Sequence record: PV357172.2
Origin: a phage
DNA: 64,000 bases
Reading direction: 5' to 3' (one strand)
Shown piece after piece: positions 11,828-46,145 of the stretch. A program made the translations under genes and the position numbers. A model generated the notes under the pieces. That model had not been told where the DNA came from, did no database searches, and was given only the letters and a program-made list of their open reading frames with translations. Each line of letters opens with the position of its first letter. Within the stretch, counting starts at the first letter, position 1.

Positions 11828-11909
11828 GGGGCTATGCTGGAACTGGTAGACAATACGGCCTTAGATTCCGTAGCTTAAATGCGTGGGAGTTCGAGTCTCC
11901 CTAGCCCCA
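11828..11909 (+). tRNA. tRNA-Leu (TAG), long variable arm
   Basis: Perfect acceptor GGGGCTA/TAGCCCC, anticodon TAG in the loop, T-arm GGGAG-TTCGAGT-CTCCC, CCA. Confidence 0.65.
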
Positions 11910-11928
11910 CCAACTTATAGGGTAATGT

Positions 11929-12513: not shown

Positions 12514-12590
12514 ACTGGTGACTAAACCCGATTGGAAATCGGTTGAGTGGTAGCAATACCGCCTTATGGGTTCAACTCCCATCTTTTCCG
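12500..12590 (+). tRNA. tRNA-Ser (GGA), long variable arm
   Basis: Perfect acceptor GGAAAAG/CTTTTCC, anticodon loop TTGGAAA, T-arm ATGGG-TTCAACT-CCCAT, CCA. Confidence 0.7.
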
Positions 12591-12605
12591 CCAAACAATT
12601 TATAT

Positions 12606-12697
12606 GGTAGGTCAATCCAATGGCTGGCGCTGGACTCCGACTTGAAATCGGTTGATCGTAGTGATACGGTGTAAGGGTTCGATCCCCTTACCTACCT
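12606..12697 (+). tRNA. tRNA-Ser (TGA), long variable arm
   Basis: Perfect acceptor GGTAGGT/ACCTACC, anticodon loop CTTGAAA, T-arm AAGGG-TTCGATC-CCCTT, CCA. Confidence 0.7.
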
Positions 12698-12712
12698 CCA
12701 AATCTTGAAGTA

Positions 12713-12837
12713 TGCCGGAATCGGTAGACGGGGCTGCCTAAAAGGTTTATAGGGAACATCCACTCCCTGCAACATACCTCATAAAGCGGCTGAGATAAAT
12801 GGTCTATCTCGTGAAGGTTCAAGTCCTTCTGCTTCTT
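12713..12837 (+). other. tRNA-like element (type-II D-arm and a T-arm, no canonical acceptor stem)
   Basis: GGAATCGGTAGACGG D-arm-like segment and GAAGG-TTCAAGT-CCTTC T-arm separated by about 80 nt. Confidence 0.2.
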
Positions 12838-13066
12838 GATACATCTATGGCTCAAAGTGTAACGGTGCTATTTGATGCTCTTGGTAAGACTTCCCCGACA
12901 TGCGTTCGGGAGTAAGCTGCTAAGACTAGAGTAGAAGAGTTTCTGAGAGCCGCCACAATTGAAAATTCGTACTCGTCTTGAGCTGCGTGCAATAGGAGAT
13001 AACTTGATTAGTATTCTAGAACATGCTAATTGAGGATGGTTTCGCTAACCCTGCGAGTTTTCAATT

Positions 13067-13140
13067 GTGGCTATATCATAATTGGTTAATGATCCTGATT
13101 GTGAATCAGGCCTATGTGGATTCGAATTCCACTAGCCACC
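13067..13140 (+). tRNA. tRNA-His (GTG)
   Basis: Perfect acceptor GTGGCTA/TAGCCAC, anticodon stem CCTGA/TCAGG, loop TTGTGAA, T-arm GTGGA-TTCGAAT-TCCAC, CCA. Confidence 0.8.
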
Positions 13141-13168
13141 CCAAATTAACTTAAATAGGAAATAAAAT

Positions 13169-13369
13169 ATGGCTGATTTCTGCAAGCAATGCTCCCTTGA
13201 TATGTGGGGCAGAGATACTGGTGACTTATCTGGTCTGATTACAGAAGCCGAAGTCAAAGAAGGTTATAGTGCAGTTGTGATTTGTGAAGGCTGCGGTGTT
13301 ATCCGTGTAGACCACACCGGTAAGCGTTTGGAAGAACCAGTTCCAATTGCGCAAGTTCCTGTAGAATAA
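13169..13369 (+). CDS. small zinc-ribbon protein (66 aa)
   Basis: CKQC ... CEGCG Cys pairs. Confidence 0.5.
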   Translation: MADFCKQCSLDMWGRDTGDLSGLITEAEVKEGYSAVVICEGCGVIRVDHTGKRLEEPVPIAQVPVE

Positions 13370-13377
13370 AAAATTAT

Positions 13378-13450
13378 TGGAGTGTAGCTCAACTGGCAGA
13401 GCGACGGTTTCTGACACCGTAGGTTTCTAGTTCGATCCTAGACATTCCAG
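13378..13450 (+). tRNA. tRNA-Gln (CTG)
   Basis: D-stem GCTC/GAGC, anticodon stem ACGGT/ACCGT, loop TTCTGAC, T-arm TCTAG-TTCGATC-CTAGA, CCA. Confidence 0.85.
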
Positions 13451-13459
13451 CCAAACAAT

Positions 13460-13534
13460 TGGGGATTAGCTTAGCTTGGCCTAAAGCTTCGGCCTTTGAA
13501 GTCGAGATCATTGGTTCAAATCCAATATCCCCTG
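13460..13534 (+). tRNA. tRNA-Gln (TTG)
   Basis: Anticodon stem TCGGC/GTCGA, loop CTTTGAA, T-arm ATTGG-TTCAAAT-CCAAT, 1:72 U-U, CCA. Confidence 0.75.
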
Positions 13535-13545
13535 CCAAACAATAA

Positions 13546-13618
13546 GCGATTAAGCACACGGGTTGTGCCGCAGGCCTTCCAAGCCCCGCTGAGTAGGGTT
13601 CGATTCCCTCTAGCCGCT
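13546..13618 (+). tRNA. tRNA, anticodon uncertain (possibly Trp CCA)
   Basis: Good T-arm (TTCGATT), acceptor with one mismatch and CCA end; anticodon stem pairs poorly. Confidence 0.5.
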
Positions 13619-13638
13619 CCAACTTTAAGGAAACATTT

Positions 13639-13860
13639 ATGCACGTTTTTGAGTTTCGTGATAAAAGTAACAATAAACGAGTTATTGTTATTGGAGAAAC
13701 ATACCTAGCATACGAACAAACTGATGGCTCTGTTATCTTGAATGATGAGAAAGCAAATTTTAGCTTTTATCCAGAAGAACCTTATGAAGAGTTTCGTACT
13801 AAGTTTCTTTTACCAGACTGGCTAGCAGTAGCCGAGCAACGAGAATCCGAAGATGGCTGA
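13639..13860 (+). CDS. hypothetical protein (73 aa)
   Basis: Track ORF with AAGGAAA SD-like sequence. Confidence 0.5.
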   Translation: MHVFEFRDKSNNKRVIVIGETYLAYEQTDGSVILNDEKANFSFYPEEPYEEFRTKFLLPDWLAVAEQRESEDG

Positions 13861-14025
13861 TAACCTAAAATTAAGGGTTGACAAACAAAAGAAATACGTT
13901 GAGGTTGAATTAGGCGAAGAACGCTTAAAGCTAACTTTCGAGTTTCTTCAGCAGTTGGCTATGACAGTCATGACTGATAAGTCTCCTGTTATTGAAAAAG
14001 AAATCCCGTTGAAATAGGAAGCAAC

Positions 14026-14418
14026 ATGGAGTTTACTTGTTTAAATTGCGGAATCACAAAACCTAAAAGTAGGGGTTCCGCAGGTAAGTATTGTGGTGCT
14101 GCTTGTCAGCAGGAGTACCAGACAAAGCAAAAAGTATTAAAGTGGCTGGCAGGTGAAGAACCTGGTTATACTGGTAAAGCTGCACAATTAAAACCTTTTG
14201 TTAGGAAGTGGCTGTGGGATACTCGTGGTACTGCTTGTGAAGTATGTGGTTGGGATGGGAAACATCCAATTGACGGAGCAGTTTTAACTGAGGTAGATCA
14301 TATAGATGGAGATGCAACTAACTGTTCTCCAGAAAATCTAAAGATTCTCTGCCCTAACTGTCACTCTATGACACCTACGCATAGGGCCAGAAATAGAGTT
14401 TCAACAAGACAACGATAG
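14026..14418 (+). CDS. HNH endonuclease (zinc-binding)
   Basis: VDHIDGD...NLKILCPNCH HNH motif plus N-terminal CxxC pairs; stop TAG supplies G1 of tRNA-Thr. Confidence 0.75.
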   Translation: MEFTCLNCGITKPKSRGSAGKYCGAACQQEYQTKQKVLKWLAGEEPGYTGKAAQLKPFVRKWLWDTRGTACEVCGWDGKHPIDGAVLTEVDHIDGDATNCSPENLKILCPNCHSMTPTHRARNRVSTRQR

Positions 14419-14489
14419 CTCTTAAAGCATTGCTGGCGATGCAACGGTCTTGTAAACCGTGGAACCGGGTTCGATTCCTGGTGGGAGCA
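14418..14489 (+). tRNA. tRNA-Thr (TGT)
   Basis: Acceptor GCTCTTA/TGGGAGC, anticodon stem ACGGT/ACCGT, loop CTTGTAA, T-arm CCGGG-TTCGATT-CCTGG, CCA. Confidence 0.8.
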
Positions 14490-14507
14490 CCAAAATTAAA
14501 AAATTCA

Positions 14508-14537
14508 TTTGCCTTCTCTCTTATTTCTTGTTATAAT
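14508..14537 (+). promoter_or_regulatory. sigma70-like early promoter
   Basis: TTTGCC -35-like 14508-14513, TATAAT 14532-14537. Confidence 0.5.
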
Positions 14538-14567
14538 ATTTATATAAATTAATGAGAGGGAAACCAA

Positions 14568-14861
14568 ATGAAACGTTATCTTTCTGTCGTGTTCCAAACT
14601 GGTGGTCAACGCTACACTTATGAATTTCCTGAGTCCTGGAAAATTAAAGAAGGTGATCAAGTTGTTGTATTAACACCTCGTGAAGGCTTCAAAGTAGTAA
14701 CGGTTAAACAAGTATTTCCAAAAGATCACGAACCATCTAAGGCTATTCAGTACAAGATGATTCATGGTCTGGTACGAAAAGTACCTAGAACAGAAGTCGA
14801 AGTAGATAAAACTGGGGAAGCTAAATACCAGTATACCTCTTACTTAGATGAAATGATGTAA
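14568..14861 (+). CDS. hypothetical protein (97 aa)
   Basis: Track ORF after promoter and GAGAGGGAAACC leader. Confidence 0.5.
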   Translation: MKRYLSVVFQTGGQRYTYEFPESWKIKEGDQVVVLTPREGFKVVTVKQVFPKDHEPSKAIQYKMIHGLVRKVPRTEVEVDKTGEAKYQYTSYLDEMM

Positions 14862-14862
14862 T

Positions 14863-14935
14863 GCTCTGATAGTTCAACAGGTTAGAACAGACGACCGATA
14901 ATCGTCAAATCTTGGTTCGATCCCAAGTCGGAGTA
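14863..14935 (+). tRNA. tRNA-Ile (GAT)
   Basis: Anticodon stem GACGA/TCGTC, loop CCGATAA, T-arm CTTGG-TTCGATC-CCAAG, CCA. Confidence 0.8.
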
Positions 14936-14944
14936 CCAAATTAT

Positions 14945-15017
14945 AGTTAGTTGGCAGAGTGGTTATGCACCTCCTTCATACGGAGCGACTACAGTGGTTC
15001 AAATCCACTACTAACTA
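14945..15017 (+). tRNA. tRNA with CAT anticodon (Met/fMet/Ile2)
   Basis: Perfect acceptor AGTTAGT/ACTAACT, loop TTCATAC, T-arm AGTGG-TTCAAAT-CCACT, CCA. Confidence 0.8.
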
Positions 15018-15023
15018 CCAAAC

Positions 15024-30778: not shown

Positions 30779-31383
30779 TGACTTTATATGCACAACAACC
30801 TGTTCAAGTAGTACCAGACCATGAATTAAATACATGGGATTATGATTTTAAAGACTTAACTGCCACTGTACAGTTCAAATCTATGAAATTAACCTTTGCG
30901 CACACTGATATTAAAGCCTGTAAAGATCTTGAGCATAAATTAAAAGAAGCTCGTAAGATCTTTGGCAAGGCTCGGATTCCAGCTGATAACCTTATTAACG
31001 CATTAATAGATGCTGGTTATAAACTCGTAAAGACTGAGGTGAACCGCCCTAGTACTCCTGTGACTGTTGGAGGTTCCTGGACCAAAAGTGGTATCGCATT
31101 TAATCCTAAAATAACGTCGGATTTGCACAATGTTCCATGTGGTGGCGTTATAGAAAATAATTCCTCATATCGAGTTGGTGAAGATTACGGCCCTTCTGTA
31201 CAGTTGCAACATACTCAAGAAGCTTTTGAATCTGATATGCGAAGCGTAGCACCTGTGGATACTGAAGGTTTTAGAAGTCCCAGCTATGTTACTCACTTTA
31301 ATAATCTTAGGCCTGGGAGTATAAATGATACTATCCTTGAGGCGTTGGGAGCTGCTCTTAACGAAGATAAGAGAGGTAGTTAA
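30778..31383 (+). CDS. hypothetical protein (201 aa)
   Basis: Track ORF. Confidence 0.5.
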   Translation: MTLYAQQPVQVVPDHELNTWDYDFKDLTATVQFKSMKLTFAHTDIKACKDLEHKLKEARKIFGKARIPADNLINALIDAGYKLVKTEVNRPSTPVTVGGSWTKSGIAFNPKITSDLHNVPCGGVIENNSSYRVGEDYGPSVQLQHTQEAFESDMRSVAPVDTEGFRSPSYVTHFNNLRPGSINDTILEALGAALNEDKRGS

Positions 31384-31460
31384 TCCTCTAATACATGAGC
31401 CTCTACAGAGGCTCTAAAATAAAAAGAAGGTCGTCCAGACCTTAAAAACGGGAGATAATA

Positions 31461-32345
31461 ATGTATAACTTTAAAGATAAACTAAGACAAAATGCTGGTA
31501 AAACAAAACCTAAAGAGAACAATAATGTTCCTAATGCCAAAGTATTACCATTTCCAGAACTATCCCAAGAAGAAAAAGATAAGTTAGCATTTATGTTTGA
31601 TGCACTTATAGGGCTAAATGGACGTTTATATTCCTCTCTCAATATTAATGAGAAACGTTTAGTAGAGATGTTTTGTAAACGTTACCAAGTTACTTCAAAG
31701 GGCAATTCTTATAAAGAAGGTGAGAAAGCATTTACAGTCTTAAAGATTAGCGCATATGCACATCGTTTCTTAGTTTATGGGTTGCAAATGGAATACTTTA
31801 CTATCCCATCATTTAGCTCTTTCCATATCTTTGAAGATGAACGAATGAATATTGATGATCTCTACGGGGATACATACAAATACTCAGGAAGTCCATTCCA
31901 CGATGCATTAAGGAGTTACCCATCTAACTATTTACCCATTAGAGCATCTCAAGGTAAAGCTAGCATCTTTGCTGTATACTCAGGATCTAAAGCATCGGAT
32001 CTAGAAACTTATATATTTAAAGAGCGTAAATCTGTGCTTCCAGATGAAGCATTGTATAACAATCCATTGCTTCCAGAAAAAGAACCAGAAAAAATTGATG
32101 TAACCCCACCAATACCGTCTGACTCTCAGTATTTAATTTATGAGAAACAAGTTAAGTTATCCCTAGAAATTGGATTAGTTACACCGCTTGCTGCAGCATT
32201 CATAAATAGATATCTAGAAATTCCTGATGAGTTCCACACACGTTATAATACGAATATTCAGATAACGGATGAACTAATTGCGTTAGCAAAAGATACACCT
32301 ACAGATACTGAGGCGTATCAAAAAGCATACCAAGAGTTACTATAA
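31461..32345 (+). CDS. hypothetical protein (294 aa)
   Basis: Track ORF with GGGAG SD; followed by a hairpin at about 32355-32385. Confidence 0.55.
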   Translation: MYNFKDKLRQNAGKTKPKENNNVPNAKVLPFPELSQEEKDKLAFMFDALIGLNGRLYSSLNINEKRLVEMFCKRYQVTSKGNSYKEGEKAFTVLKISAYAHRFLVYGLQMEYFTIPSFSSFHIFEDERMNIDDLYGDTYKYSGSPFHDALRSYPSNYLPIRASQGKASIFAVYSGSKASDLETYIFKERKSVLPDEALYNNPLLPEKEPEKIDVTPPIPSDSQYLIYEKQVKLSLEIGLVTPLAAAFINRYLEIPDEFHTRYNTNIQITDELIALAKDTPTDTEAYQKAYQELL

Positions 32346-32792
32346 TACTCTGCATGTCTCGGTGCACAATACCTGTACCGAGACTCAAATACAAACTCTC
32401 GTTGACAGATAGCTAAATGTATGTTATCATAACTCTATGAGTTAATAGAATTAACCATTTAGAGTTGCCACACAGAAGGTGTGGTGGTTCAGTAATTTAA
32501 AATTACTAACTTGTAGCGGAGGATACGGAGCGACAGGACAAGTTAATAAGTAATTTAATATAAATTACTAGAAACATCACGAGACCTTCTGGCGGGGGGC
32601 AAAGCTCTATATGAGAACCCTGGGGGATCTTATATTTAAAATAAAAGTAAAACTTTTGACCACATAATTTACATTCAAGATGATACACCTGTTGCCGCTC
32701 ATCTGCTAGGATGGCACAACACTTTCTTCTAGACTCCTAAGTTTCTAGGAAATTGATAAGCACAAATTCTAGAGATCACACAAAAATATTCA

Positions 32793-33529
32793 TCGGATTT
32801 GCACATATTCTAGGGCAGTTTTCACTGTTCCTAGAAACTCCAGCAATAGGCGGTTAATACAGGGCGGTTATAGGGAGGGCGGTTATTTCTAGGAGACATT
32901 TTTTGAAAACACATTTCCAGAAATTACTGTCGGATTTGCACATTGTGTTTCTAGAAATTTATGGTCGGATTTGCACAAACGCCTAAGTTTTTAGGAACTC
33001 TTACTCTCCTGAAAATAGCAGCATTATTTCGGGCCGAAGGCCCATGATTGCCTGAGTTTTTAGAGCCACAAGAATTTTCACTTGTCAAGCTATTTTGCCC
33101 CATTTTGCTAATAAAATTTTACTTTTTCTGCACCTATCTCAAATTTCCCCAAATTATCTCAACTCTTCCCCAAAATCCCCGCAAATCAGGTGCTCCGCAC
33201 CAATCCTGCGCCTACTTCCTTCTAGTCCCAAAATTTCTCTCACTCTCTCATCCTCTCCTCAAACCTATACAATCACACACCCTCTCATCGAAGTCATAAA
33301 AATCTTGTCGGATTCGCACATCTCAACACATGTCGGATTTGCACATACTCTAGCTAATCCCACAGGATTCGAACGCAGTTCGTGATTGCTGGAGTTTTTG
33401 GGAAAATTCATTGTCGGATTTGCACACTATAAAAATTTTTCGGGTCGGATTTGCACACTACCAAAAATTGTCGGATTCGCACATACACGCCCACGCGTAA
33501 TCCATGGGGGCAAATGTCGGTTTTGCACA
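32793..33529. repeat. dispersed array of 10 copies of GTCGGATTTGCACA in non-coding DNA
   Basis: Copies near 32793, 32928, 32964, 33307, 33332, 33413, 33444, 33470, 33516 (two as GTCGGATTCGCACA, one GTCGGTTTTGCACA); irregular spacing. Confidence 0.8.
33100..33300 (+). repeat. about 200-nt pyrimidine-rich (C/T) tract with strand asymmetry
   Basis: Plus strand almost lacks G across this interval. Confidence 0.7.
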
Positions 33530-33559
33530 AAAGCGCAGGGCAATTGCCCTGCTCGCCTG

Positions 33560-33735
33560 AATGCGAATAAAAATAAGAATCATTCTCATTTAAAAAGTGG
33601 AATGCGAATGAGAATCATTATCATTTAGAAAACGGAATGAGAACTATTCAAGAAGTGAAATGATTCTCATTTAAAAAGTGGAGTGATTATCGATTAGCTA
33701 GTGAAATGCGAATGATAATGATTCGCATTTAAAAA
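33560..33735. repeat. tandem about 35-bp repeats with Fur-box-like palindromes
   Basis: Four to five units such as AATGCGAATGAGAATCATTATCATTTAGAAAACGG; GAGAATCATTATC matches 12 of 13 positions of the Fur consensus. Confidence 0.6.
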
Positions 33736-33762
33736 CGGAAGTGAGAAACACTGCTATTTAAG

Positions 33763-33872
33763 TTATCCACAGACTTATTAACAGCACGATTTGACTTGAC
33801 AGAATCCTAGCCATTTTGAGGCGTTATCCACAGACTTATCCCCAGGTTATTCTACTGTATAAATATACAGTA
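33763..33872. repeat. left arm of inverted repeat carrying DnaA boxes
   Basis: TTATCCACAGACTTAT twice (33763, 33824) followed by CTGTATAAATATACAG palindrome. Confidence 0.7.
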
Positions 33873-33987
33873 TTCCTATGCAGTGAATAATTCTAATATA
33901 GGCTTAAAACGTCCTGAGTGGTGGTACTAAAACAAAGGGGTATTTATCTGAAGGACTGAAAAACTGGGATCTGCTCCCCGCTTGTTA

Positions 33988-34182
33988 TCAGTCCGGTAAT
34001 TGATGCGTGATCTTCTCCTCCTCCCCGTAGGAATCCACCAAATGCTGATAATACCCATCGTTATCATAAATCACTTTATCATAATCGCCACGCTCGACCG
34101 CTTGCCGATTTTCCAGCGTATCAGGCACAAAGAAAGTATCAACGGTAACAGTAGTTTTAGTTACAACAATTTTATCACTCAT
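33988..34182 (-). CDS. hypothetical protein (64 aa)
   Basis: Minus-strand ORF in the IR-flanked cassette; Fur-like motif in its upstream region (34196-34216). Confidence 0.45.
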   Translation of the reverse strand: MSDKIVVTKTTVTVDTFFVPDTLENRQAVERGDYDKVIYDNDGYYQHLVDSYGEEEKITHQLPD

Positions 34183-34308
34183 AACGCCATCGCCCCTAGA
34201 ATGAGAATGATTATTATTACCATTACAAGCCCGTTACTAAATCGTAAACGCTGGGAATGTTTACCAGCGGTATTATTAGATTTATGGGATTGCGTTTTAC
34301 GCCACCAG

Positions 34309-34509
34309 CTATTCACGGTAGACACGCCAGCCGTCTAGCTTCCATTCTTCCCCCTTGCGAATATTGAAAAACCAATCATTAAAATTGTAACCATCTTCTG
34401 ACATGATCACGCCGTTTTCTTTCATGTACAAAAATTCATTGCTAGTAAAATATTGATTACTAACTTTAAAACCTTGTTTCATTTTTTCTAGTGCTTCATC
34501 TTTAGTCAT
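34309..34509 (-). CDS. small protein with DUF2829-like pattern (possible Tad2-like sponge)
   Basis: EALEKMKQGFKV...DW...EEW...GW pattern resembles DUF2829 proteins as I recall them; AGGTGG SD. Confidence 0.4.
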   Translation of the reverse strand: MTKDEALEKMKQGFKVSNQYFTSNEFLYMKENGVIMSEDGYNFNDWFFNIRKGEEWKLDGWRVYRE

Positions 34510-34850
34510 TGCGCCACCTTTCGAAACGCTGTTTCAATACTATCCGCAGTGGATTGAATATACGCGCCTTTCATTATCAGGCGCTCGGTACATACCTTGC
34601 GGAAAATATTAATAAAATCATCTTCGTTTTCTGCAATTAATGCTTCACCCATAACCTGAACGTCACAAGATGCAAAGGTCAAAAATTGAAACGCTAGTTC
34701 ACGGGCAACGACCGCATTAATTTTATAGTGCGCCTTGCCCTCATAAATATTAATAACGCCCTTATATTCAGGGGAAAGCTGATTTAAATAGTTTGCTAAT
34801 AATGCCGGACGGCAATTAGCAACAAAACGATTGCCCTCATAAATTACCAT
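34506..34850 (-). CDS. hypothetical protein (114 aa)
   Basis: ATG at 34850 with GGAG SD. Confidence 0.5.
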   Translation of the reverse strand: MVIYEGNRFVANCRPALLANYLNQLSPEYKGVINIYEGKAHYKINAVVARELAFQFLTFASCDVQVMGEALIAENEDDFINIFRKVCTERLIMKGAYIQSTADSIETAFRKVAQ

Positions 34851-34851
34851 T

Positions 34852-35064
34852 TTATAACACTCCACGAAAGGCCGCGTAAAAGGTGGCAAAATGTTTAACC
34901 GTCTCAGCGATCACGTTGCCCCGTTTATCGAATTTCTTTTCTGTAACACGAAAGGCGTTTTTGTTGCGTGCTACATATTCGATTTTACAATCTGGACGCT
35001 CGAACGTGTTAACGTCCACCAGCTTAAAGCCTTTCGAACGTGTAAGGGAAACGTTACGGATCAT
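34852..35064 (-). CDS. hypothetical basic protein (70 aa)
   Basis: AGGAG SD; translationally coupled. Confidence 0.5.
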   Translation of the reverse strand: MIRNVSLTRSKGFKLVDVNTFERPDCKIEYVARNKNAFRVTEKKFDKRGNVIAETVKHFATFYAAFRGVL

Positions 35065-35066
35065 TT

Positions 35067-35255
35067 TTATTCTCCTTTACTAGTCATGCAGCCCAGCAGA
35101 TAAGAAAAAACGGCGATACCCGCGCCAATAATAACCATTGGTTTTGTATTTACTAAACCACAATAGGAATCCTGAATACCATAAGCGGTGGCGAAAAGAG
35201 TCAGAATAGCGCCCAAGATACCTGCTAGAATAGCTCGAAAAATAACCATTTTCAT
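35067..35255 (-). CDS. small membrane protein (63 aa)
   Basis: ATG 35255 after TTTCTAGGAGAATGAAA; two hydrophobic helices. Confidence 0.45.
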   Translation of the reverse strand: MKMVIFRAILAGILGAILTLFATAYGIQDSYCGLVNTKPMVIIGAGIAVFSYLLGCMTSKGE

Positions 35256-35296
35256 TCTCCTAGAAATTAGAGGCGAAAGTAACGCCCAGTTATTGG

Positions 35297-35524
35297 TTAC
35301 ATTAAAACGATTTTGGCGGCTTGTTTTTTGGTGCAATGTTCCGCTTTCAATTCATCCAGCAAAAATCCAGCTGTTTGCTGATCAATCTTGTCATTATTGT
35401 AAAGCTCCTGAATGGTAACATAAGTTTTAGCAATCCCAAATTCAGAAACCATAACGCTTACAATAGCGGGAACGGATACCCATTCCATACCATTAAAAAT
35501 TGCAGAAGATGATGAATGTACCAT
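35297..35524 (-). CDS. hypothetical protein (75 aa)
   Basis: AGGAGG SD after TTTCTAGG motif; first gene of the minus-strand cassette. Confidence 0.5.
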   Translation of the reverse strand: MVHSSSSAIFNGMEWVSVPAIVSVMVSEFGIAKTYVTIQELYNNDKIDQQTAGFLLDELKAEHCTKKQAAKIVLM

Positions 35525-35646
35525 TTTAACGCCTCCTAGAAATCAGGGAAAATTTTCAATCCACCGTTTTGGTGTAAAGGCATTATAACAAAAAAGGCCA
35601 CCATAAAAGGCGACCTTTACAAAACTTTACATTAGGTTAATTATTA

Positions 35647-35760
35647 CTCGCTTTCGGTGCTAACGGTAAAAGTAGAAATATCAATACCTTTCACCATTTC
35701 CAGCATTGCCGCCACCTGGCCGCCGCGTTGGGTCTTTACTTTAATATTACCCCACAGCGT
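35647..35760 (-). pseudogene. 38-codon gene remnant (3' end only)
   Basis: Open frame between stops encoding ...TLWGNIKVKTQRGGQVAAMLEMVKGIDISTFTVSTESE with no start or RBS; a hairpin and T-run follow on the minus strand. Confidence 0.3.
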
Positions 35761-35825
35761 TTAGCTCGTTAGAAAGCGATTTAGGCCGCTTATTTTGGGC
35801 ATCATTATAGTATGCTTCCCATTTA

Positions 35826-35935
35826 CCCTGTATATTTATACAGTGGAATAACCTGTGGATAAGTCTGTGTAAAAGTGCTGTAAAGCCTTCCTATTGTGTC
35901 AATCAAATTTACAAAATGTATAAACCTGTGGATAA
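35826..35935. repeat. right arm of inverted repeat carrying DnaA boxes
   Basis: Reverse complement of the left arm: CTGTATATTTATACAG palindrome and TGTGGATAA twice (35854, 35927). Confidence 0.7.
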
Positions 35936-36126
35936 CTTAAATGATAGTGGTTCTCACTAACTAATTTATACAGTTATTATATAACAAAATATAGTTAGTT
36001 GGCTAATAGGATTTTAAAGTGATTATGAGTCTGCTAAGTAAACCTGAAAAACTCATTAGGTAGTCTGCTAATGATTTTGATATAATATAATAGAGATTAA
36101 ACTAATAACATAAGGAAACAATAACA

Positions 36127-36645
36127 ATGGGTCTATTTAAAGATATAGATTATTCGCTTGCTAATGATAACTTTTATTATGATGAAACATCCCCATCATT
36201 TCTAAGATGGAAAGTACAGAAAGGTAATAGTAAGGTGGGGGATATTGCAGGGCATTATAGTAACACAGGTTACTATCGAGTAAAGTTAGCAGGCGAACAA
36301 TACGCAGTGCATAGAATAATATGGGTATTATTTAATGGTGAGATTGATAGCAATCTAACAATCGATCATAATGATCGTAACCGTGCTAATAATAACATTA
36401 ATAATCTTCGCTTAGTAGATCATAAGCAGAATACGAATAACAAGAAAGATTATAAGCGTGCTAATAAGTTGCCTAAGCATATCTATTATAATGGTTCTAG
36501 AGTTGATAATAACGGAAGAAACTATTTGCGCGCTATAGTTAAAGATCCTACTAGTAACAAAAGTGTTAGTAAATCAGGTTATGATTTACAAGAGTTATTA
36601 TTATGGGTAGAAACTAAAAAAGCTGAATTTGGGATTGTCAATTAA
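36127..36645 (+). CDS. HNH homing endonuclease
   Basis: HRIIWVLFNGEIDSNLTIDHNDRN...NNLRLVDHKQN HNH motif. Confidence 0.8.
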   Translation: MGLFKDIDYSLANDNFYYDETSPSFLRWKVQKGNSKVGDIAGHYSNTGYYRVKLAGEQYAVHRIIWVLFNGEIDSNLTIDHNDRNRANNNINNLRLVDHKQNTNNKKDYKRANKLPKHIYYNGSRVDNNGRNYLRAIVKDPTSNKSVSKSGYDLQELLLWVETKKAEFGIVN

Positions 36646-37033: not shown

Positions 37034-37375
37034 ATGATTGAGCTAACAAAAGATATTGATTTAGAAACTGTGCTAGATAATCTTTACTATGATGAAACTA
37101 GTCCCAGTTGCCTACGGTGGAAAGTATCCCGCCCCGGTTGCGCCCTTCATGGGGTAGCAGGTACTAAAAGAAAGGATGGTTACTGGTCTGTACAGCTCAA
37201 TAAAGAGCGTTACCTAGCGCATCGTATCGTGTGGTTATTATTTAATTATAAAATAGATAGCAAACTAGTAATTGATCATATTGATCGTAACCCTAGTAAT
37301 AATTTTATTGATAACTTACGGTTAGTAACTCAAGCCGAAAACAACCAAAATAAGGGAGGCTATAGAAAGGCGTAA
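37034..37375 (+). CDS. HNH homing endonuclease (short paralog)
   Basis: HRIVWLLFNYKIDSKLVIDHIDRN...DNLRLVTQAEN; upstream leader similar to that of 36127. Confidence 0.75.
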   Translation: MIELTKDIDLETVLDNLYYDETSPSCLRWKVSRPGCALHGVAGTKRKDGYWSVQLNKERYLAHRIVWLLFNYKIDSKLVIDHIDRNPSNNFIDNLRLVTQAENNQNKGGYRKA

Positions 37376-38336: not shown

Positions 38337-38744
38337 ATGACTAACGCAAAAACCGCAAAATTCGCATGGAATGAAGAAAACACTCAGAAAGCTGTTACCA
38401 TGTACCAGCAGTTAATCAACGAAAACGGTTTAGATTTTGCAAATAGCGACGGCCTGAAAGAGATTGCAAAAGCAGTAGGCGCGGCTTCTCCTGTGTCTGT
38501 TCGCTCAAAATTGACCAGTGCAAAAGCCTATCAAAAAAGCGATAAGCCGCGTAAAGTTGGCGGCGGTAGTTCAATCCGTAAAGCGCATTATGTGCGAGTA
38601 ATTGCAAAACACGCTATCGATTCCGGCATTATCAAAGACGCCGATGATCTGGCAAGCCTTGAAAGTGCTAAACTGGAAACGCTGGACGCAGTAGCGCAAC
38701 TGTTAGGCGTTGCCGATGAAGTAAAACAGGCCGCAGGTGAATAA
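38337..38744 (+). CDS. hypothetical pre-early-region protein (135 aa)
   Basis: AGGAG SD; followed by hairpin GCCCCCT...AGGGGGC. Confidence 0.5.
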   Translation: MTNAKTAKFAWNEENTQKAVTMYQQLINENGLDFANSDGLKEIAKAVGAASPVSVRSKLTSAKAYQKSDKPRKVGGGSSIRKAHYVRVIAKHAIDSGIIKDADDLASLESAKLETLDAVAQLLGVADEVKQAAGE

Positions 38745-41616: not shown

Positions 41617-42351
41617 ATGAATCAAGTTAAAACGAATATTACCCGTAATTTCCCGCATATTTCCCGCGTCATGATTTGGGATCTTGATGGCACTATCGTT
41701 AATTCATTCCATCGTGTCGCGCCTTGCTTTGATAGCGACGGGAATTTAAATTTAAATAAGTATAAAAATGAGGCTTGCAAACATGATTTAATAATGCAAG
41801 ATACTTTATTGCCTTTGGTGGAATATATGCGCCAATGCATGAATGACGCAAATACTTTAAACATTATTTGCACCGCTCGACTGATGAGCAAATCAGACTA
41901 TTATTATTTGCGTAAACAAGGATTGCGCGGGCGTGGTGATAGTAATATCCGTGTATTTTCCCGCGATACACTGCATAAATATTTTGAGGCTGATAAGGTT
42001 AGCGAAATATACCACAGCAAAGACGCAGTTTATAAATCGTATTATTTTGAGCTATTCAAACAACTATATCCGAACGCTGATTTTACAATGATTGATGATC
42101 ATAAAGGTGTATTATCAGCGGCAGCGTCATACGGATTTAAAACGCTGGACGCGCAAGCCGTTAATGATATTCTATCAATCGGCGTGGCATTGATAGGCGG
42201 AACCTTTATTGATGAATCTCTCGATGATGATAATGATTATCAGTTCCTAGCGGACCGATTGAAATTATGTTGGGAAAGTATGACCGAGGAAGAACGCGCA
42301 GAATATAGTTGCAGCCCGCAACAATATATTGAGAAATTAAAAGTTGCGTAA
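41617..42351 (+). CDS. dmp: HAD-superfamily phosphatase, Dmp-like 5'-deoxyribonucleotidase (244 aa)
   Basis: HAD motif I DLDGT and motif IV IDDH; same length as T5 Dmp as I recall it. Confidence 0.6.
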   Translation: MNQVKTNITRNFPHISRVMIWDLDGTIVNSFHRVAPCFDSDGNLNLNKYKNEACKHDLIMQDTLLPLVEYMRQCMNDANTLNIICTARLMSKSDYYYLRKQGLRGRGDSNIRVFSRDTLHKYFEADKVSEIYHSKDAVYKSYYFELFKQLYPNADFTMIDDHKGVLSAAASYGFKTLDAQAVNDILSIGVALIGGTFIDESLDDDNDYQFLADRLKLCWESMTEEERAEYSCSPQQYIEKLKVA

Positions 42352-42513
42352 TAATTAAAGTTGAAATAGTCACGGTGTGTAATGATAACATGCCGTGACT
42401 ATTAGCTTGCTAAGTACCGGGCGGTAATGAGACTCATTCTCATCTGGGGGGCCACTGCACCCACCCACGCGTACGTAATCCAAAGAATTTGGCAAAAGTC
42501 ATTTTAGTGCTAA

Positions 42514-43053
42514 TTAACTGTTTAATTGGGCAACGTCTGGTATACTTCCTTTGAACATCTCCTGTATTGCAAAGTCACCATGAAATGTCCTTCTTAGTAA
42601 ATTTGCATAATTTACGGCATCTTCTAATCCGCTATAGGGAAAGTACTTAGTAGTACCCCTTATCAGCCCCTGTTTATCATGTAATCTTACCATCCACTTC
42701 TGAAGTTCTTTATGCCATGTAACATTTAGATAGCCTGATGATGCTCTTGAGATTCTGCCATTATGATTATTCTCTGTAATTGAAGCCTCTCTTAAATTTG
42801 ACCATCTATTATTTAGTTTATTCCTATCTATGTGGTCTACACATTCCTCTGGCCATCTATTCTCCATAATAACAAAAGCTACTTGATGTGCATAAGCTTT
42901 AAACCCTCGATACTTAAGCTGCCTATATCCCCTATTTAAAGTACCTGCTTCTTTACCCTTACGATTGCCTCTTTTCCAGGTAAAAACTCCGGTTTCGGGA
43001 TCATAAGCAAATACTTCTTGTATTTCCTGTATGTTTAAATTATTCTTCATCAC
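42514..43053 (-). CDS. HNH homing endonuclease
   Basis: HQVAFVIMENRWPEECVDHIDRNKLNNRWSNLRE HNH motif. Confidence 0.75.
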   Translation of the reverse strand: MMKNNLNIQEIQEVFAYDPETGVFTWKRGNRKGKEAGTLNRGYRQLKYRGFKAYAHQVAFVIMENRWPEECVDHIDRNKLNNRWSNLREASITENNHNGRISRASSGYLNVTWHKELQKWMVRLHDKQGLIRGTTKYFPYSGLEDAVNYANLLRRTFHGDFAIQEMFKGSIPDVAQLNS

Positions 43054-43285
43054 TCACCTTTGCCCGAAATCTCTTCCGCGACGCCCGAGATCCATCCGAC
43101 CACTCCCGCTCAAACTCCGCACGTTTCTCGTCAAACTTCCGCTCCCTTTCCGCAATCTTCCGCTCCCTTTCCGCAATCTCCCGCGATACTTCCGCAGTAT
43201 ACTTACGATGCTTGTTAATAGCCGCAGTCATTCCGAAAACTCCCGCAAGTACCCCGATAATAAAAGCAATTATAATACTAAACAT
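43040..43285 (-). CDS. small membrane protein with charged repeat tail (81 aa)
   Basis: N-terminal TM helix then IAERERK repeated, encoded by a 21-bp tandem DNA repeat (about 43140-43185). Confidence 0.5.
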   Translation of the reverse strand: MFSIIIAFIIGVLAGVFGMTAAINKHRKYTAEVSREIAERERKIAERERKFDEKRAEFEREWSDGSRASRKRFRAKVSDEE

Positions 43286-43472
43286 CTAATTCCCTCTCAA
43301 TTTGCAGAATACGGGTACTATCACAACGTTGGAGTTCTACTAATTTTTCTAGAGCAAATTGTTGTTGTTTTACCTGAGCTTCTAGAGTTTTTAGGCGAAC
43401 ATACGCGTTATAAGAAACAATGAAAGTTGCCCAGACTAGTATTACTATTAGTGTAGCTACTACTTCCATCAT
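43278..43472 (-). CDS. TM plus coiled-coil small protein (64 aa), paralog family
   Basis: ATGATG start overlaps the upstream stop. Confidence 0.5.
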   Translation of the reverse strand: MMEVVATLIVILVWATFIVSYNAYVRLKTLEAQVKQQQFALEKLVELQRCDSTRILQIERELDV

Positions 43473-43576
43473 TTACGTTTCTCCGTTAGTAAAGTTTCAA
43501 TTCTAGCTAAGTGATTATCTAAAATACATTGCCCAATAATCATAATTCCCAGTAATGAAATAATTACCCATTCCAT
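43469..43576 (-). CDS. TM plus coiled-coil mini-protein (35 aa), paralog
   Basis: MEWVII...ARIETLLTEKRK, same N- and C-terminal signatures as the 61-aa neighbour; below track cutoff. Confidence 0.4.
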   Translation of the reverse strand: MEWVIISLLGIMIIGQCILDNHLARIETLLTEKRK

Positions 43577-43761
43577 TATTTACGCTCCTCTAATAAAGTT
43601 TCAATTCTAGATAACCTATTACTCAACTGCATTAATTTAACCTCTACTTGGGTTACAGAGGTATCTATTACACGTAAGCCTACAAAGAGAAGTATCAGTA
43701 GGATGAATATGCCAATAATTACCCATTCCATTAAATCCACCCCGCCATAGCTGCTAACCAA
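43576..43761 (-). CDS. TM plus coiled-coil small protein (61 aa), paralog
   Basis: ...MEWVIIGIFILLILL...RIETLLEERK. Confidence 0.5.
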   Translation of the reverse strand: MVSSYGGVDLMEWVIIGIFILLILLFVGLRVIDTSVTQVEVKLMQLSNRLSRIETLLEERK

Positions 43762-43922
43762 AAACCTACGAAGATTAGGAATAATACAAAACCAAATCCG
43801 TAAATATTAATCCACGCTTCGTACACTTCTCCGCGTCTGTTCTTTCTTTTGTTTGACATATCTTTCCTGCTCCTATAAATATAGTATTTGGAATATTTTA
43901 TAATTTGCGCATAGCCAACCAT
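43731..43922 (-). CDS. small protein with C-terminal TM helix (63 aa)
   Basis: Basic N-terminus, hydrophobic C-terminus; first gene of the minus-strand array. Confidence 0.45.
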   Translation of the reverse strand: MVGYAQIIKYSKYYIYRSRKDMSNKRKNRRGEVYEAWINIYGFGFVLFLIFVGFWLAAMAGWI

Positions 43923-44035
43923 GCTCGTGATTTCCTAGAAGGGCTTTTCACTTTCTTGCATAGTGTTTTCTGCTAGTACACCATCCAAGAAATAAAAAAT
44001 TTAGTTTACTTGGATGTCTTTTTGCTTTATACTAA

Positions 44036-44302
44036 TTACAAGTAATTAGATTGCTCTAGTTTAAATTTACAATCACCATATTTAAGGTCAAACTGACTGA
44101 GATCCCACCATCCAAACTTAGTACGGAGCTGTACTACTGGAAAGCGATCTCCCTTAATACGAACTTTTTGAACCTTGAGACCGTAATGTTCTTCTCCCTC
44201 ACCACCAAAAGATTTTACAAATCCAGTACAAAATGGTTTGGGAGCAGGTGCACAACCAGATAACATAACTGCGGCAACTAGTGTAATCACAAACTTTTTC
44301 AT
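44036..44302 (-). CDS. llp: Llp-like lipoprotein (receptor-blocking candidate)
   Basis: Signal peptide with lipobox LSGC; divergent from the RBP gene as llp is from oad in T5. Confidence 0.6.
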   Translation of the reverse strand: MKKFVITLVAAVMLSGCAPAPKPFCTGFVKSFGGEGEEHYGLKVQKVRIKGDRFPVVQLRTKFGWWDLSQFDLKYGDCKFKLEQSNYL

Positions 44303-44387
44303 ATTTATCTCTCCATTTCTAATTTATGAATATATTATAGCAAAATAGAGAGATGAAAGCAAATACATTTTTATAATAGGAGATTAT

Positions 44388-46145
44388 ATGGGTTTTTTCG
44401 CTGGAAAATATAGCGATGGTAAGACCGTACTATCTTTAAATACTGAATCTGGTGGTGACATTAATCGTCACTATAGTCCAAATACCAATAGTATTTTTCA
44501 TAGTGATATGCCATTTGTCCTAGTTGATGGTACTTATGAGTCTGGGTTAGGTGATGCCGGTAATGGGTTTTTTGTATGTCAGATGCCCTCTGACATAATA
44601 AATATTAAATCCAATGACCCCGGTAGAGTTATATTAACTGCTATTGAGATTAATGGTACTCACAGAGCTTTTCTTAATGGTACTCAGAGTAAGGTGGGTC
44701 AAACTATAGTTGCCACTCAAGCAGATCCTTTTAGATCTTTTGCTAGTGTTTCCCAGACTAGTGGATTTGCATTTGGTAATAGCCTGGCATCTGGTACATA
44801 TAACTATAATCCATCTATAGGGCATGAAGAATCTATTTCTAGGAATGGTACAGGGGGTACTACCTTACATAGTACGTATCATGGTATAGTTAGGCCGGGT
44901 GCAGGAGCTCCAGTAGGTATTACTGTTGCAGAAGCTTTTGCACAGTTAGGATTCCCTACTAATAGTAGTACAGTACCTATAGATGGTAATAACCAATATT
45001 ACTGGGACCCAGGATGGATGTCTCCTTTAGGATCAGCACACAGAGGGCACGATTGGTTTTATGTTTGTAACTCTAACATACGTGGGTATGGTGGGGTAAG
45101 ACAAGGTCTTCCTGGTAATGTAAATACTATGTATCATGATGGAGGTAACAGATTTGTTTGTAGGGGGTCTACAACTAATTTAGCTAACCAATCTGGTAAC
45201 GCTACAATATTACAGGATTGGTATAACATAACCCCTACTAAAGTTATTTGGTATGTTCTGAATTTAAGATACTCAAATGGTGGTATGAGTATCTCTGGTA
45301 ATCCTTTTACTGGTTCAGATATTCTTATATCTCCTTCTAATTTCATAATTAAAGGGGTTAGTCTTCCCAATACTGGATACAAGTTTATTAACCAGAACGC
45401 TTTTGGTAACTTAGGTTATAGACCAGATATGGAGTATATAGGAAATAACGCAGCGTATACCGGGGTTTTTGGGGATACCACGGCAAGGTGTGAACTTGTA
45501 GGATCTAGTAATGGGGGTTTGTGGTCTCCTGTAGATTATGGAGGGGCTAAATCTCAAATTAGTATTTATAAATTCGGAGCTGGTAAGCAATGGTATGTAA
45601 ACTCTAGGGATAATACTATCGGTAATGAACACGGGGTTGTTTGGGGACCATCAGCAGTTCCATTACGACTTTTTGGTGGAAATGTAGGTAGCTCTTACAT
45701 GGGGGATGATATTACTCCCAGCTACCCGGGAACAGGGGATAGATACGTTGGTTTATCAACTATTGGGCTAGGTATACCGGGTGGCAATGCTACAGTAATT
45801 CTTACCACTGAAGTTATATCAGGTAACCTTAACTGTGCAGGTGTTCCTGCTAATACATGGAATAACGGTGTGTTTCAAGTGCAAGGAAGAAGAGCATATA
45901 GCTATAGTAATGGAGATGCAATATTCCACCAGATTTTAACATTACCAGTAGGGTATTTAGTACCTTTTCATACTACATCTGCTTTTAGATACACACCTAA
46001 CAATGCCCTAAGTAGAAATAGTTTTATATACACTGCTAAAAATCTGGGGAATGGAAATGTAGAGTTAGGGGTAGTTATGCACGTAAGTTTAGGTAGTGCA
46101 GTTTTCCTACCGAGATTAAGAGTAACAGTTCAACGCCTTACCTAA
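44388..46145 (+). CDS. receptor-binding protein, pb5-like (585 aa)
   Basis: N-terminus [17 protein letters not shown]...SGGDINRH...IFHSDM resembles T5 pb5 as I recall it; position upstream of terminase. Confidence 0.6.

What the first reader, a model, noticed from the sequence alone, without database searches (positions are those of the whole stretch)
33560..33735. Tandem Fur-box-like repeats inside a phage genome
Four to five tandem units of about 35 bp contain palindromes such as GAGAATCATTATC and GATAATGATTCGC that closely match the E. coli Fur box (GATAATGATAATCATTATC). Related copies occur at 34196-34216, upstream of a minus-strand ORF, and at 42426-42440. A phage whose relatives use Fur-regulated outer-membrane receptors carrying an array of Fur-like sites could be sensing iron or titrating Fur to raise receptor expression.
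Basis: inference. Interest (0 to 1): 0.7.

Follow-up and report, generated by a model that had tools for sequence, protein, structure and literature searches.

The report
Host Fur-repressor sites in T5 injection-stop region
The repeats are real, near-perfect binding sites for the host iron repressor Fur. They lie in the long-known but unexplained "injection stop" repeat region of a T5-like phage, which gives a 50-year-old puzzle a specific host protein to test.

Summary
Window 33560-33735 holds three full 19-bp Fur boxes and several partial units. A Fur matrix built de novo from 13 E. coli Fur-regulated promoters scores them at 20.6, 24.7 and 22.6 bits (maximum 25.5; real E. coli sites have a median of 17.1), each with a weaker site offset by 6 bp. 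Shuffled sequence almost never reaches this.

The window is a T5-like phage. The array corresponds to T5's annotated direct repeat C and palindromes E/G/I in "Repeat Region 3". That is the injection-stop (iss) region at the inner end of the terminal repeat, about 25 bp from the 7.9% nick.

All 31 distinct arrays from enterobacterial T5-like phages keep 3-6 strong boxes, including a phage shown experimentally to use BtuB. Vibrio relatives lack the array.

Every window hit of 12 bits or more lies in the terminal repeat. None lies in the window's other 54 kb, and 49 kb of T5 unique DNA has none.

The halves of the palindromes do not covary, so a protein site is conserved, not a hairpin.

No paper I could search calls these sites Fur boxes.

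Most likely host Fe-Fur coats the distal end of the first-step-transfer DNA. Its function there is inferred, not shown.

The parts
33572..33590 (.). Fur box 1 (AATAAGAATCATTCTCATT), 20.6 bits. A weaker overlapping site lies at 33566-33584 (10.6 bits).
   Evidence: PWM scan. Corresponds to T5 palindrome I / direct repeat C copy 4.
33607..33625 (.). Fur box 2 (AATGAGAATCATTATCATT), 24.7 bits of a possible 25.5. An overlapping site 6 bp away lies at 33601-33619 (14.1 bits).
   Evidence: Identical to T5 palindrome G.
33636..33694 (.). Three 23-bp partial units: AATGAGAACTATT, AATGATTCTCATT and AGTGATTATCGAT. These are half-boxes scoring below 8 bits.
   Evidence: Sequence, repeat families, PWM scan.
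33711..33729 (.). Fur box 3 (AATGATAATGATTCGCATT), 22.6 bits. An overlapping site 6 bp away lies at 33705-33723 (13.5 bits).
   Evidence: Corresponds to T5 palindrome E. It is the commonest site sequence across phages (17 of 31 arrays).
33535..33552 (.). GC-rich hairpin GCAGGGCAATTGCCCTGC, equivalent to T5 palindrome J. On the minus strand it is followed by a T-run, so it looks like a terminator. The T5 '7.9% major nick' motif CCCTGCGC (T5 orientation) overlaps its end at 33533-33540.
33763..33832 (+). Two consensus DnaA boxes (TTATCCACA at 33763-33771 and 33824-33832). They lie in the 131-bp inverted-repeat module IRD'-spacer-IRC'.
   Evidence: Davison preprint.
33853..33872 (.). TACTGTATAAATATACAGTA, equivalent to T5 palindrome D. 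It matches the LexA (SOS) box consensus at 19 of 20 positions.
32792..33529 (+). Ten copies of GTCGGATTTGCACA (T5 direct repeat D). They straddle the inferred inner end of the terminal repeat at about 33065.
34200..34224 (.). Isolated strong Fur box (34200-34218, 21.4 bits) with a site 6 bp away (34206-34224, 16.2 bits). It lies 17 bp upstream of the minus-strand ORF 33988-34182 and at the 3' end of ORF 34179-34325.
   Evidence: Present at 21-25 bits in most relatives but absent from T5 itself.
35940..35958 (.). Fur box (AATGATAGTGGTTCTCACT, 18.7 bits) at the edge of the second, inverted copy of the DnaA/LexA-like module. This is T5 Repeat Region 2 (IRC).
   Evidence: Conserved at 16-20 bits in nearly all relatives.
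42226..42244 (.). Fur box (17.4 bits) inside the dmp coding sequence, near the left genome end.
   Evidence: Also 18.8 bits in the Klebsiella phage.
42426..42444 (.). Weak Fur-like match (13.7 bits). It sits inside a separate conserved element downstream of dmp and is probably not a Fur site.

Best explanation
The repeats are a conserved cluster of operators for the host ferric uptake regulator Fur. They lie inside the known T5 injection-stop (iss) repeat region, about 500-660 bp inside the inner end of the terminal repeat. They are the last roughly 160 bp of DNA before the hairpin and the 7.9% nick, where first-step transfer (FST) ends.

Shown here by computation:
- The sites are of consensus quality.
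- They have the 6-bp-offset overlapping layout typical of Fur operators.
- They are kept in every enterobacterial T5-like phage examined, while individual sites turn over.
- They occur only in the terminal repeat, that is, in the FST DNA.

Inferred from established Fur biochemistry: when the FST DNA enters an iron-replete cell, pre-existing Fe2+-Fur dimers occupy and polymerise over the array and the other 3-5 boxes in the FST DNA. Fur is present at thousands of copies per cell, and no phage protein synthesis is needed.

Hypothesis: together with the adjacent DnaA boxes and the LexA-type box, the Fur-coated array forms a host-protein nucleoprotein block at the distal end of the FST DNA. That block would insulate or arrest the converging pre-early transcription, and perhaps stabilise the transfer pause or its A1/A2-dependent release. 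The pre-early phase would then respond to host iron status.

The array is not a device for raising receptor expression.
For: Site quality:
- An unseeded motif search on 13 MG1655 Fur promoters recovers the Fur motif.
- Window sites score 20.6-24.7 bits against a median of 17.1 for real sites. The matrix maximum is 25.5.
- The scores are far above shuffles.
- Secondary sites lie exactly 6 bp away, as Chen et al. 2007 describe for Fur clusters.

Specific location:
- All 12 window hits of 12 bits or more lie in about 9.4 kb of terminal repeat; none lie in the other 54 kb.
- T5 42.5-91.5 kb has none.
- In T5 the boxes are palindromes E, G and I (19.2, 24.7 and 20.0 bits). The 7.9% nick lies about 25 bp beyond the last overlapping box.

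Conservation:
- 31 distinct arrays each have 3-6 sites of 16 bits or more. They include Pectobacterium and Klebsiella phages with only 65-75% A1 identity.
- 47 distinct site sequences give a matrix that correlates with the E. coli Fur matrix at r = 0.95.
- Only 2 of the 47 are perfect palindromes, and palindromic complementarity equals the expectation from independent halves (7.11 against 7.22 of 9). So a protein-recognition sequence is selected, not a hairpin.

Other:
- No Fur-family domain was found in the ten plus-strand pre-early and adjacent ORFs scanned.
- The literature treats these repeats as unexplained.
Against: - No binding data exist; everything rests on sequence.
- The array does not overlap a recognisable promoter, so the classical Fur-repressor role is not evident.
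- Vibrio T5-like phages keep the DRD repeats, the DnaA boxes and the LexA-like palindrome but have no Fur array. This is despite a very similar Fur box in Vibrio (my knowledge). So the array is a lineage-specific add-on, not a core part of two-step transfer.
- fur did not appear among T5 resistance genes in the genome-wide screen text I read. T5 grows on fur mutants as far as I know, so Fur is not essential to the phage.
- T5 has putative terminators upstream of the module, which weakens the transcription-roadblock idea for T5.
- A protein bound to DNA that is already inside the cell does not obviously stop further DNA entry.
Confidence: 0.6

Rival explanations
1. One reading: the array titrates Fur, or senses iron at adjacent promoters, so that Fur-regulated receptors such as FhuA or FepA are expressed more.
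For: T5 itself uses FhuA, and the sites are genuine Fur-type boxes. Overexpressing FeoB or YdiE protects BL21 from T5. The authors explain this through Fur repression of fhuA, which shows that iron and Fur status matter to T5 infection.
Against: - The array is equally present in BtuB-type phages. TrudiRoth is experimentally BtuB-dependent, and the window phage's receptor-binding protein is 69% identical to TrudiRoth's.
- btuB is not in the Fur regulon (my knowledge).
- Flanking genes converge on the array, and no promoter is adjacent.
- Host DNA is destroyed in the pre-early phase, and T5 masks its receptor with Llp (reference listed).
- About 10 sites on one FST molecule cannot titrate thousands of Fur molecules.
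- More receptor on a cell that is already infected does not help the phage.
Confidence: 0.04
2. The palindromes act through DNA or RNA structure (cruciforms or hairpins that stall DNA transfer), or as cleavage sites for an A1/A2 nuclease as Davison proposed. On this view the likeness to Fur boxes is incidental.
For: The region is packed with palindromes and sits where transfer pauses. Davison lists palindromes E-J as candidate restriction-type sites. The iss mechanism is still unknown.
Against: - Only 2 of 47 distinct sites are perfect palindromes, and the two halves do not covary.
- Substitutions fall where the Fur matrix is degenerate (r = 0.95).
- Several sites reach 24.7-25.5 bits of a possible 25.5. 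That is not expected of an unrelated 19-bp specificity.
- Isolated copies elsewhere in the FST DNA, including one inside dmp, fit a diffusible-protein site better than a structural stop.
Confidence: 0.12
3. A phage protein binds the boxes, with or instead of Fur. An example is A2, the DNA-binding protein needed for second-step transfer. It could mimic Fur specificity or displace Fur to restart transfer.
For: A2 (38337-38744) belongs to a 'DNA binding protein' family (phrog_1725). Its model is all-helical with an HTH-like N-terminal part. A2 acts at exactly this stage, according to the literature quoted.
Against: - The pause happens without phage protein synthesis (classical result, my knowledge), so a pre-existing factor is needed for any role in the stop.
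- A2 has no Fur-family domain, no significant match to solved structures and no beta wing.
- Vibrio relatives keep A2 but lack the array.
Confidence: 0.12
4. The match is a chance by-product of AT-rich repetitive DNA.
For: The region is 71% A+T and repetitive.
Against: - Among dinucleotide shuffles, 0.06% give one site of 20 bits or more; three are observed.
- The boxes persist over lineages whose spacers have diverged.
- Non-repeat phage DNA of similar composition has none.
Confidence: 0.01

Closest known systems
T5 'Repeat Region 3' / injection stop signal region: direct repeat C copies 1-4, DRE repeats and palindromes E, G, H, I (Heusterspreute 1987; Wang 2005 record AY587007; Davison 2015 and 2020)
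   Same: It is the same element. The window is 94% identical to T5 over 31001-33915. The order of elements matches the T5 annotation: direct repeat D copies, hairpin and nick, the array, DnaA-box inverted repeat, then palindrome D.
   Different: [quoted passage not shown] They discuss only DnaA, IHF and Fis. Here palindromes E, G and I are identified as consensus-grade Fur boxes and palindrome D as an SOS-box consensus.
Chromosomal Fur operator clusters of E. coli, e.g. fepA-fes, fepB-entC, fhuA, fecI, ryhB (Chen et al. 2007, PMC2189734)
   Same: The same 19-bp palindromic motif and the same 6-bp-offset overlapping sites. Scores equal or exceed those of the chromosomal sites.
   Different: Chromosomal clusters overlap the -35/-10 of an iron-regulated promoter. 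The phage array has 3-6 separate strong boxes spaced 23-35 bp apart over 120-270 bp, between convergent gene ends, with no promoter.
Fur boxes carried by temperate phages in front of cargo genes: the sitABCD operon on lambdoid coliphages (PMC6969025) and the stx1 promoter of Stx1 phages (my knowledge)
   Same: Phage DNA that carries binding sites for host Fur.
   Different: Those are single promoter operators that control a host-beneficial cargo gene in a lysogen. This is a multi-site array in the first-injected DNA of a virulent phage, and it is not attached to a cargo gene.
Davison's DnaA-box model of the T5 injection stop (bioRxiv 10.1101/866236)
   Same: The same logic: pre-existing, abundant, sequence-specific host DNA-binding proteins recognise the iss region.
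   Different: A different host protein. The DnaA boxes are also conserved in Vibrio relatives, whereas the Fur array is confined to the enterobacterial branch.

Membership tests
Fur box / Fur operator (Enterobacterial Fur) | Match to the 19-bp palindromic Fur motif at the level of validated sites | tested here: met
   Scores of 20.6, 24.7 and 22.6 bits against a leave-one-out median of 17.1 (maximum 21.2) for 13 E. coli promoters. 16/19 and 14/19 matches to the classical consensus.
Fur box / Fur operator (Enterobacterial Fur) | Clustered sites overlapping at 6-bp (or 3-bp) offsets | tested here: met
   Each strong box has a second site exactly 6 bp away, scoring 10.6, 14.1, 13.5 and 16.2 bits. 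The criterion comes from Chen et al. 2007.
Fur box / Fur operator (Enterobacterial Fur) | Overlaps the promoter of an iron-regulated gene | tested here: not met
   The array lies between the 3' ends of convergent gene sets, and no promoter-like site lies within the array; the nearest is at 33778-33805, about 50 bp beyond it. The single box at 35940-35958 lies just downstream of a promoter-like site on the minus strand, which is inconclusive.
Fur box / Fur operator (Enterobacterial Fur) | Metal-dependent binding of Fur in vitro or in vivo | not testable with these tools
   Needs EMSA, footprinting, a Fur titration assay or ChIP.
T5 injection-stop (iss) Repeat Region 3 | Non-coding repeat block at the inner end of the terminal repeat with this order: direct repeat D copies, palindrome J / 7.9% nick, DRC / palindromes E-I, IRC'-spacer-IRD' with DnaA boxes, palindrome D | tested here: met
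   94% identity and collinearity with T5. Feature-by-feature mapping to AY587007. DnaA boxes at +33 in 26 of the 31 arrays, with a second box at +94 or +106 in most, and the LexA-like box at +123 in 26 of 31.
T5 injection-stop (iss) Repeat Region 3 | Cis-acting arrest of DNA transfer at about 8% of the genome | not testable with these tools
   Only the literature supports this, and only for T5 and BF23.
Fur-titrating decoy (FURTA-type effect on the host regulon) | Enough copies of the site, and a live host Fur regulon that responds | not testable with these tools
   Inference only: a single FST copy, and host DNA degraded early. This argues against it.
Replication origin (DnaA boxes plus iterons) | Mapped origin activity at this locus | tested here: not met
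   DnaA boxes are present. However, T5 origins map near the genome centre and replication genes are not expressed during FST (literature). No test for a DNA-unwinding element was done.
Structured RNA (Rfam family) | Match to a curated covariance model | tested here: not met
   No Rfam match with E of 1 or less in 32000-36500.

The most novel reading that the evidence does not exclude
Host Fe2+-Fur is the long-sought trans-acting component of the T5 injection stop in enterobacterial T5-like phages. It would act with DnaA and a LexA-type box binder on the neighbouring sites. Fur polymerised on the array at the 7.9% position would hold the DNA until A1/A2 release it. Two-step DNA transfer, and with it the length of the pre-early host-takeover phase, would then depend on the iron status of the cell.
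Probability: 0.12. Interest if true: 0.85.

Novelty: new variant of a known kind. Interest (0 to 1): 0.62.

Why it matters
T5's two-step DNA injection has been known since the 1960s, and its cis-acting stop region has been sequenced since 1987. Papers from 2020 and 2026 still describe it as an unexplained set of repeats, palindromes and DnaA boxes.

Three findings turn that descriptive puzzle into experiments that use standard reagents: fur deletion hosts, lexA(Def) hosts, dnaA(ts) hosts, iron chelators and purified Fur.
- The most conserved palindromes are consensus Fur operators.
- The neighbouring palindrome D is a consensus SOS box.
- Such sites occur only in the first-injected 8% of the genome.

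This would also be a rare case of a virulent phage keeping an array of sites for a host global regulator in DNA that is neither a promoter nor cargo-associated. It would link iron physiology to the earliest step of infection in a phage group widely used for Salmonella and E. coli biocontrol.

Tried and rejected
- Rfam scans of 32000-36500 and 42000-44400 found nothing relevant.
- Promoter and terminator scans found no promoter within the array, only the palindrome J hairpin as a terminator-like site.
- A Pfam scan of the ten plus-strand pre-early and adjacent ORFs found only HNH endonucleases and DUFs, with no Fur family.
- A2 as a Fur mimic: there was no PDB sequence match. The AlphaFold model (pLDDT 84) is all-helical and has no significant Foldseek match; the best is E = 0.6, TM 0.34. 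This is inconclusive and I dropped it.
- Distant A1-encoding metagenomic loci (37-49% identity): 14 of 17 have no Fur-type site of 14 bits or more, and none has an array. Their genome organisation differs, so they are uninformative.
Many unrelated contigs have single boxes; multi-box loci were mostly T5-like. I did not analyse this further.
- Davison's 2015 review could not be read, and I did not try to obtain Wang 2005 or Heusterspreute 1987. I therefore cannot exclude that one of them mentions Fur. Searches of the held library for Fur together with T5 found nothing.
- A replication-origin reading was rejected on the literature mapping.

Full report
**1. What is in the sequence**

Window 33560-33735 reads as a series of related units. 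There are two 35-bp units: 33566-33600 and 33601-33635. Three 23-bp partial units start at 33636, 33659 and 33682. A final full unit covers 33705-33738. Tandem Repeats Finder sees only the first 2.3 copies, with a 35-bp period. The repeat finder groups the 19-20-nt cores at 33571, 33606, 33710 and 34199 into one family and shows that they are mutually inverted, that is, palindromic.

**2. Are they Fur boxes?**

I did not rely on the remembered consensus alone. I fetched 13 Fur-regulated promoter regions of E. coli MG1655: fepA-fes, fepD-entS, fepB-entC, fhuA, tonB, cirA, fecI, exbB, fiu, fhuE, fhuF, ryhB and sufA. I then ran an unseeded, palindromic, 19-bp hard-EM motif search on them. The best motif was AATGATAATCATTATCATT, the classical Fur motif.

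- With this matrix, window sites score 20.6 bits (33572-33590), 24.7 (33607-33625) and 22.6 (33711-33729). The matrix maximum is 25.5 bits.
- Leave-one-out scores of the 13 genuine sites run from 9.2 to 21.2, with a median of 17.1.
- Each strong box has a weaker site exactly 6 bp away: 10.6, 14.1 and 13.5 bits. Chen et al. describe this layout for Fur clusters.
- Against the classical 19-mer, the best matches are 16/19 and 14/19.
- In 5000 dinucleotide shuffles of the 71%-AT region, the mean best score was 4.2. Only 0.06% of shuffles had any site of 20 bits or more.
- Shuffles of the whole window give 0.33 sites of 14 bits or more, against 8 observed.

**3. Where this is**

The window is a T5-like phage: 450 phage records match the region.

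- Window 31001-33915 is 94% identical to T5 coordinates 12287-9366, in reverse orientation.
- The 1.6-kb non-coding stretch 32400-33990 is T5's "Repeat Region 3". This is the injection-stop-signal (iss) region at the inner end of the 10-kb terminal repeat.
- The T5 record of Wang et al. annotates the elements. My matrix places Fur boxes on palindrome E (19.2 bits), palindrome G (24.7) and palindrome I (20.0). Direct repeat C copies 1-4 are the repeat units.
- Palindrome J is the GC hairpin. The "major single-stranded nick 1, 7.9%" lies about 25 bp beyond the last overlapping box.
- In window coordinates, DNA enters from about 42470 downwards. The order of entry is: LexA-like palindrome D (33853-33872), DnaA boxes (33824, 33763), the Fur array (33729 down to 33572), the hairpin and nick motif (33552-33533), then ten GTCGGATTTGCACA repeats.
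- The inner end of the repeat is inferred at about 33065, by homology with T5.
- Flanking genes converge on the block. There is no promoter-like site in the array, and the hairpin is the only terminator-like site.

**4. Distribution**

- All 12 window sites of 12 bits or more lie between 33572 and 42444, that is, in the terminal repeat. The other 54 kb has none.
- T5 42.5-91.5 kb covers the part of the genome not represented in the window, including the nrd genes. It has no site above 10.1 bits.
- Besides the array there are boxes at 34200-34224 (21.4 and 16.2 bits), at 35940-35958 (18.7 bits, at the edge of the second, inverted copy of the DnaA/LexA-like module in Repeat Region 2), and at 42226-42244 (17.4 bits, inside dmp).

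**5. Conservation**

Using the A1 protein I collected 57 loci from IMG/VR, plus Klebsiella, Vibrio and TrudiRoth records.

- Every enterobacterial T5-like phage with the region present has an array. There are 31 distinct arrays, each with 3-6 sites of 16 bits or more.
- A DnaA box lies at +33 in 26 of the 31 arrays, with a second box at +94 or +106 in most, and the LexA-like box lies at +123 in 26 of 31.
- This includes Pectobacterium phage DU_PP_V and a 122-kb relative (A1 65-67% identical), and a Klebsiella phage (75%). Their spacers have diverged, but the boxes still score 20-24 bits.
- The 47 distinct site sequences give a frequency matrix that correlates with the E. coli matrix at r = 0.95. 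This is partly circular, because the sites were picked with that matrix.
- Only 2 of the 47 are perfect palindromes. Complementarity between the halves is what independent halves would give: 7.11 against 7.22 of 9 pairs. Selection therefore acts on a protein-recognition sequence, not on hairpin or cruciform potential.
- Vibrio T5-like phages keep the DRD-type repeats, the GTTATCCACA boxes and a CTGTATATTTATACAG palindrome, but have no Fur array. Most of the 17 distant metagenomic A1 loci have no Fur-type site of 14 bits or more, and none has an array.
- The array is thus an addition specific to the enterobacterial branch, laid on an older conserved core.

**6.

- The receptor link does not hold. 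The window's receptor-binding protein is 69% identical to that of TrudiRoth and 30% identical to T5 pb5. TrudiRoth is experimentally BtuB-dependent, and most of the subfamily targets BtuB. TrudiRoth nevertheless has four array boxes of 19-22 bits.
- Titration is quantitatively implausible for a single FST molecule. It would also be pointless once host DNA is degraded, and T5 masks its receptor.
- Iron sensing by the phage remains possible.
- A published screen found that FeoB or YdiE overexpression protects BL21 against T5. The authors explain this by Fur repression of fhuA. A direct effect of more holo-Fur on the phage's own boxes is an untested alternative.

**7. Mechanism**

Shown: consensus-grade, clustered, conserved Fur-type sites confined to the FST DNA and ending about 25 bp from the 7.9% nick.

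Inferred from Fur biochemistry: Fe2+-Fur already present in the cell will occupy them as soon as the DNA enters.

Hypothesised: with the DnaA and LexA-type sites they form a host-protein complex at the distal end of the FST DNA. That complex would insulate or arrest converging pre-early transcription, and may modulate the pause or its release.

Counter-arguments:
- There is no promoter overlap.
- The array is absent from Vibrio relatives.
- Fur is apparently dispensable for plating.
- T5 has putative terminators upstream of the module.
- A cytoplasmic DNA-bound protein has no obvious physical way to stop DNA entry.

I therefore give high confidence to "these are Fur-binding sites under selection" and low-to-moderate confidence to any particular function.

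**8. Rivals**

- Structure or cleavage-site models are disfavoured by the covariation test.
- A phage protein such as A2 binding the boxes is not excluded. However, A2 has no Fur domain, no wing and no significant structural match.
- Chance is excluded.

**9. Novelty**

The repeats themselves are long known. In the literature I could read, no one assigns them to Fur or notes that palindrome D is an SOS-box consensus. Davison (2020) has no occurrence of Fur, iron or LexA and calls the functions "impossible to guess". A 2026 PNAS paper still lists only repeats, palindromes and DnaA boxes. Library searches for Fur together with T5 returned nothing. I could not read the 2015 review, and I did not try to obtain the 1987 or 2005 papers. 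Fur boxes on temperate phages in front of cargo genes are known. An array in the injection-stop region of a virulent phage is a new variant.

Noticed in passing
window 33853-33872 and 35829-35848: TACTGTATAAATATACAGTA (T5 'palindrome D') matches the 20-bp LexA/SOS-box consensus at 19 of 20 positions, against 0.01 matches expected by chance. A weaker inverted copy, CCCTGTATATTTATACAGTG, lies in Repeat Region 2. The box is at a fixed +123 bp from the Fur array in 26 of 31 phage arrays. A similar palindrome sits next to DnaA boxes in Vibrio phage BBMuffin. The iss papers I read do not mention it.
   Followed up: partly
window 32792-33529 (10 copies), plus 31116-31129: The GTCGGATTTGCACA repeats (T5 direct repeat D) contain ATTTGCACA, an 8/9 match to the DnaA-box consensus TTWTNCACA. 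They straddle the inferred inner end of the terminal repeat. The same motif (TCGGATTTGCAC, 6 copies) occurs at the equivalent place in Vibrio phage BBMuffin (L072 31-254). It is therefore far more deeply conserved than the Fur array. It could be weak DnaA sites or sites for a terminase or end-recognition protein.
   Followed up: partly
window 42414-42475; L072 8465-8530: GGCGGTAATGAGACTCATTCTCATCTGGGGGG..CACGCGTACGTAATCC lies just downstream of dmp, near the inferred left genome end. It is nearly identical in Vibrio phage BBMuffin (A1 only 33% identical) but absent from the T5 terminus. There is no tRNA or Rfam match. It may be a terminus or packaging signal.
   Followed up: partly
window 33135-33174 and 43132-43196: C/T-rich 20-21-bp tandem repeats (TATCTCAAATCTTCCCCAAAT x2; CAATCTTCCGCTCCCTTTCCG x2.5) lie near the two ends of the collapsed terminal repeat. 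The first pair corresponds to T5 direct repeat A copies 2-3, just before the end of the left terminal repeat.
   Followed up: no
window 36127-36645, 37034-37375, 42514-43053(-): Three HNH_3 homing-endonuclease ORFs lie in or next to the terminal repeat. The one at 42514-43053 lies between the T5-homologous genome end and the late genes.
   Followed up: no
window 32402-32430 (+): A near-consensus sigma-70 promoter-like site (TTGACA, 17-nt spacer, TG, TATCAT; 11/12) lies directly after the last early ORF. It points into the non-coding repeat block. No ORF or known RNA lies downstream.
   Followed up: no
window 34852-35064 (-): Homologue of T5.015 (phrog_4227), a nickase acting at abasic sites made by host Ung. 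It lies in the variable minus-strand pre-early operon, which is bracketed by the two inverted DnaA/LexA-like/Fur modules.
   Followed up: no
window 4053-15020: A cluster of 19 tRNA genes on the plus strand, typical of the T5 early region.
   Followed up: no
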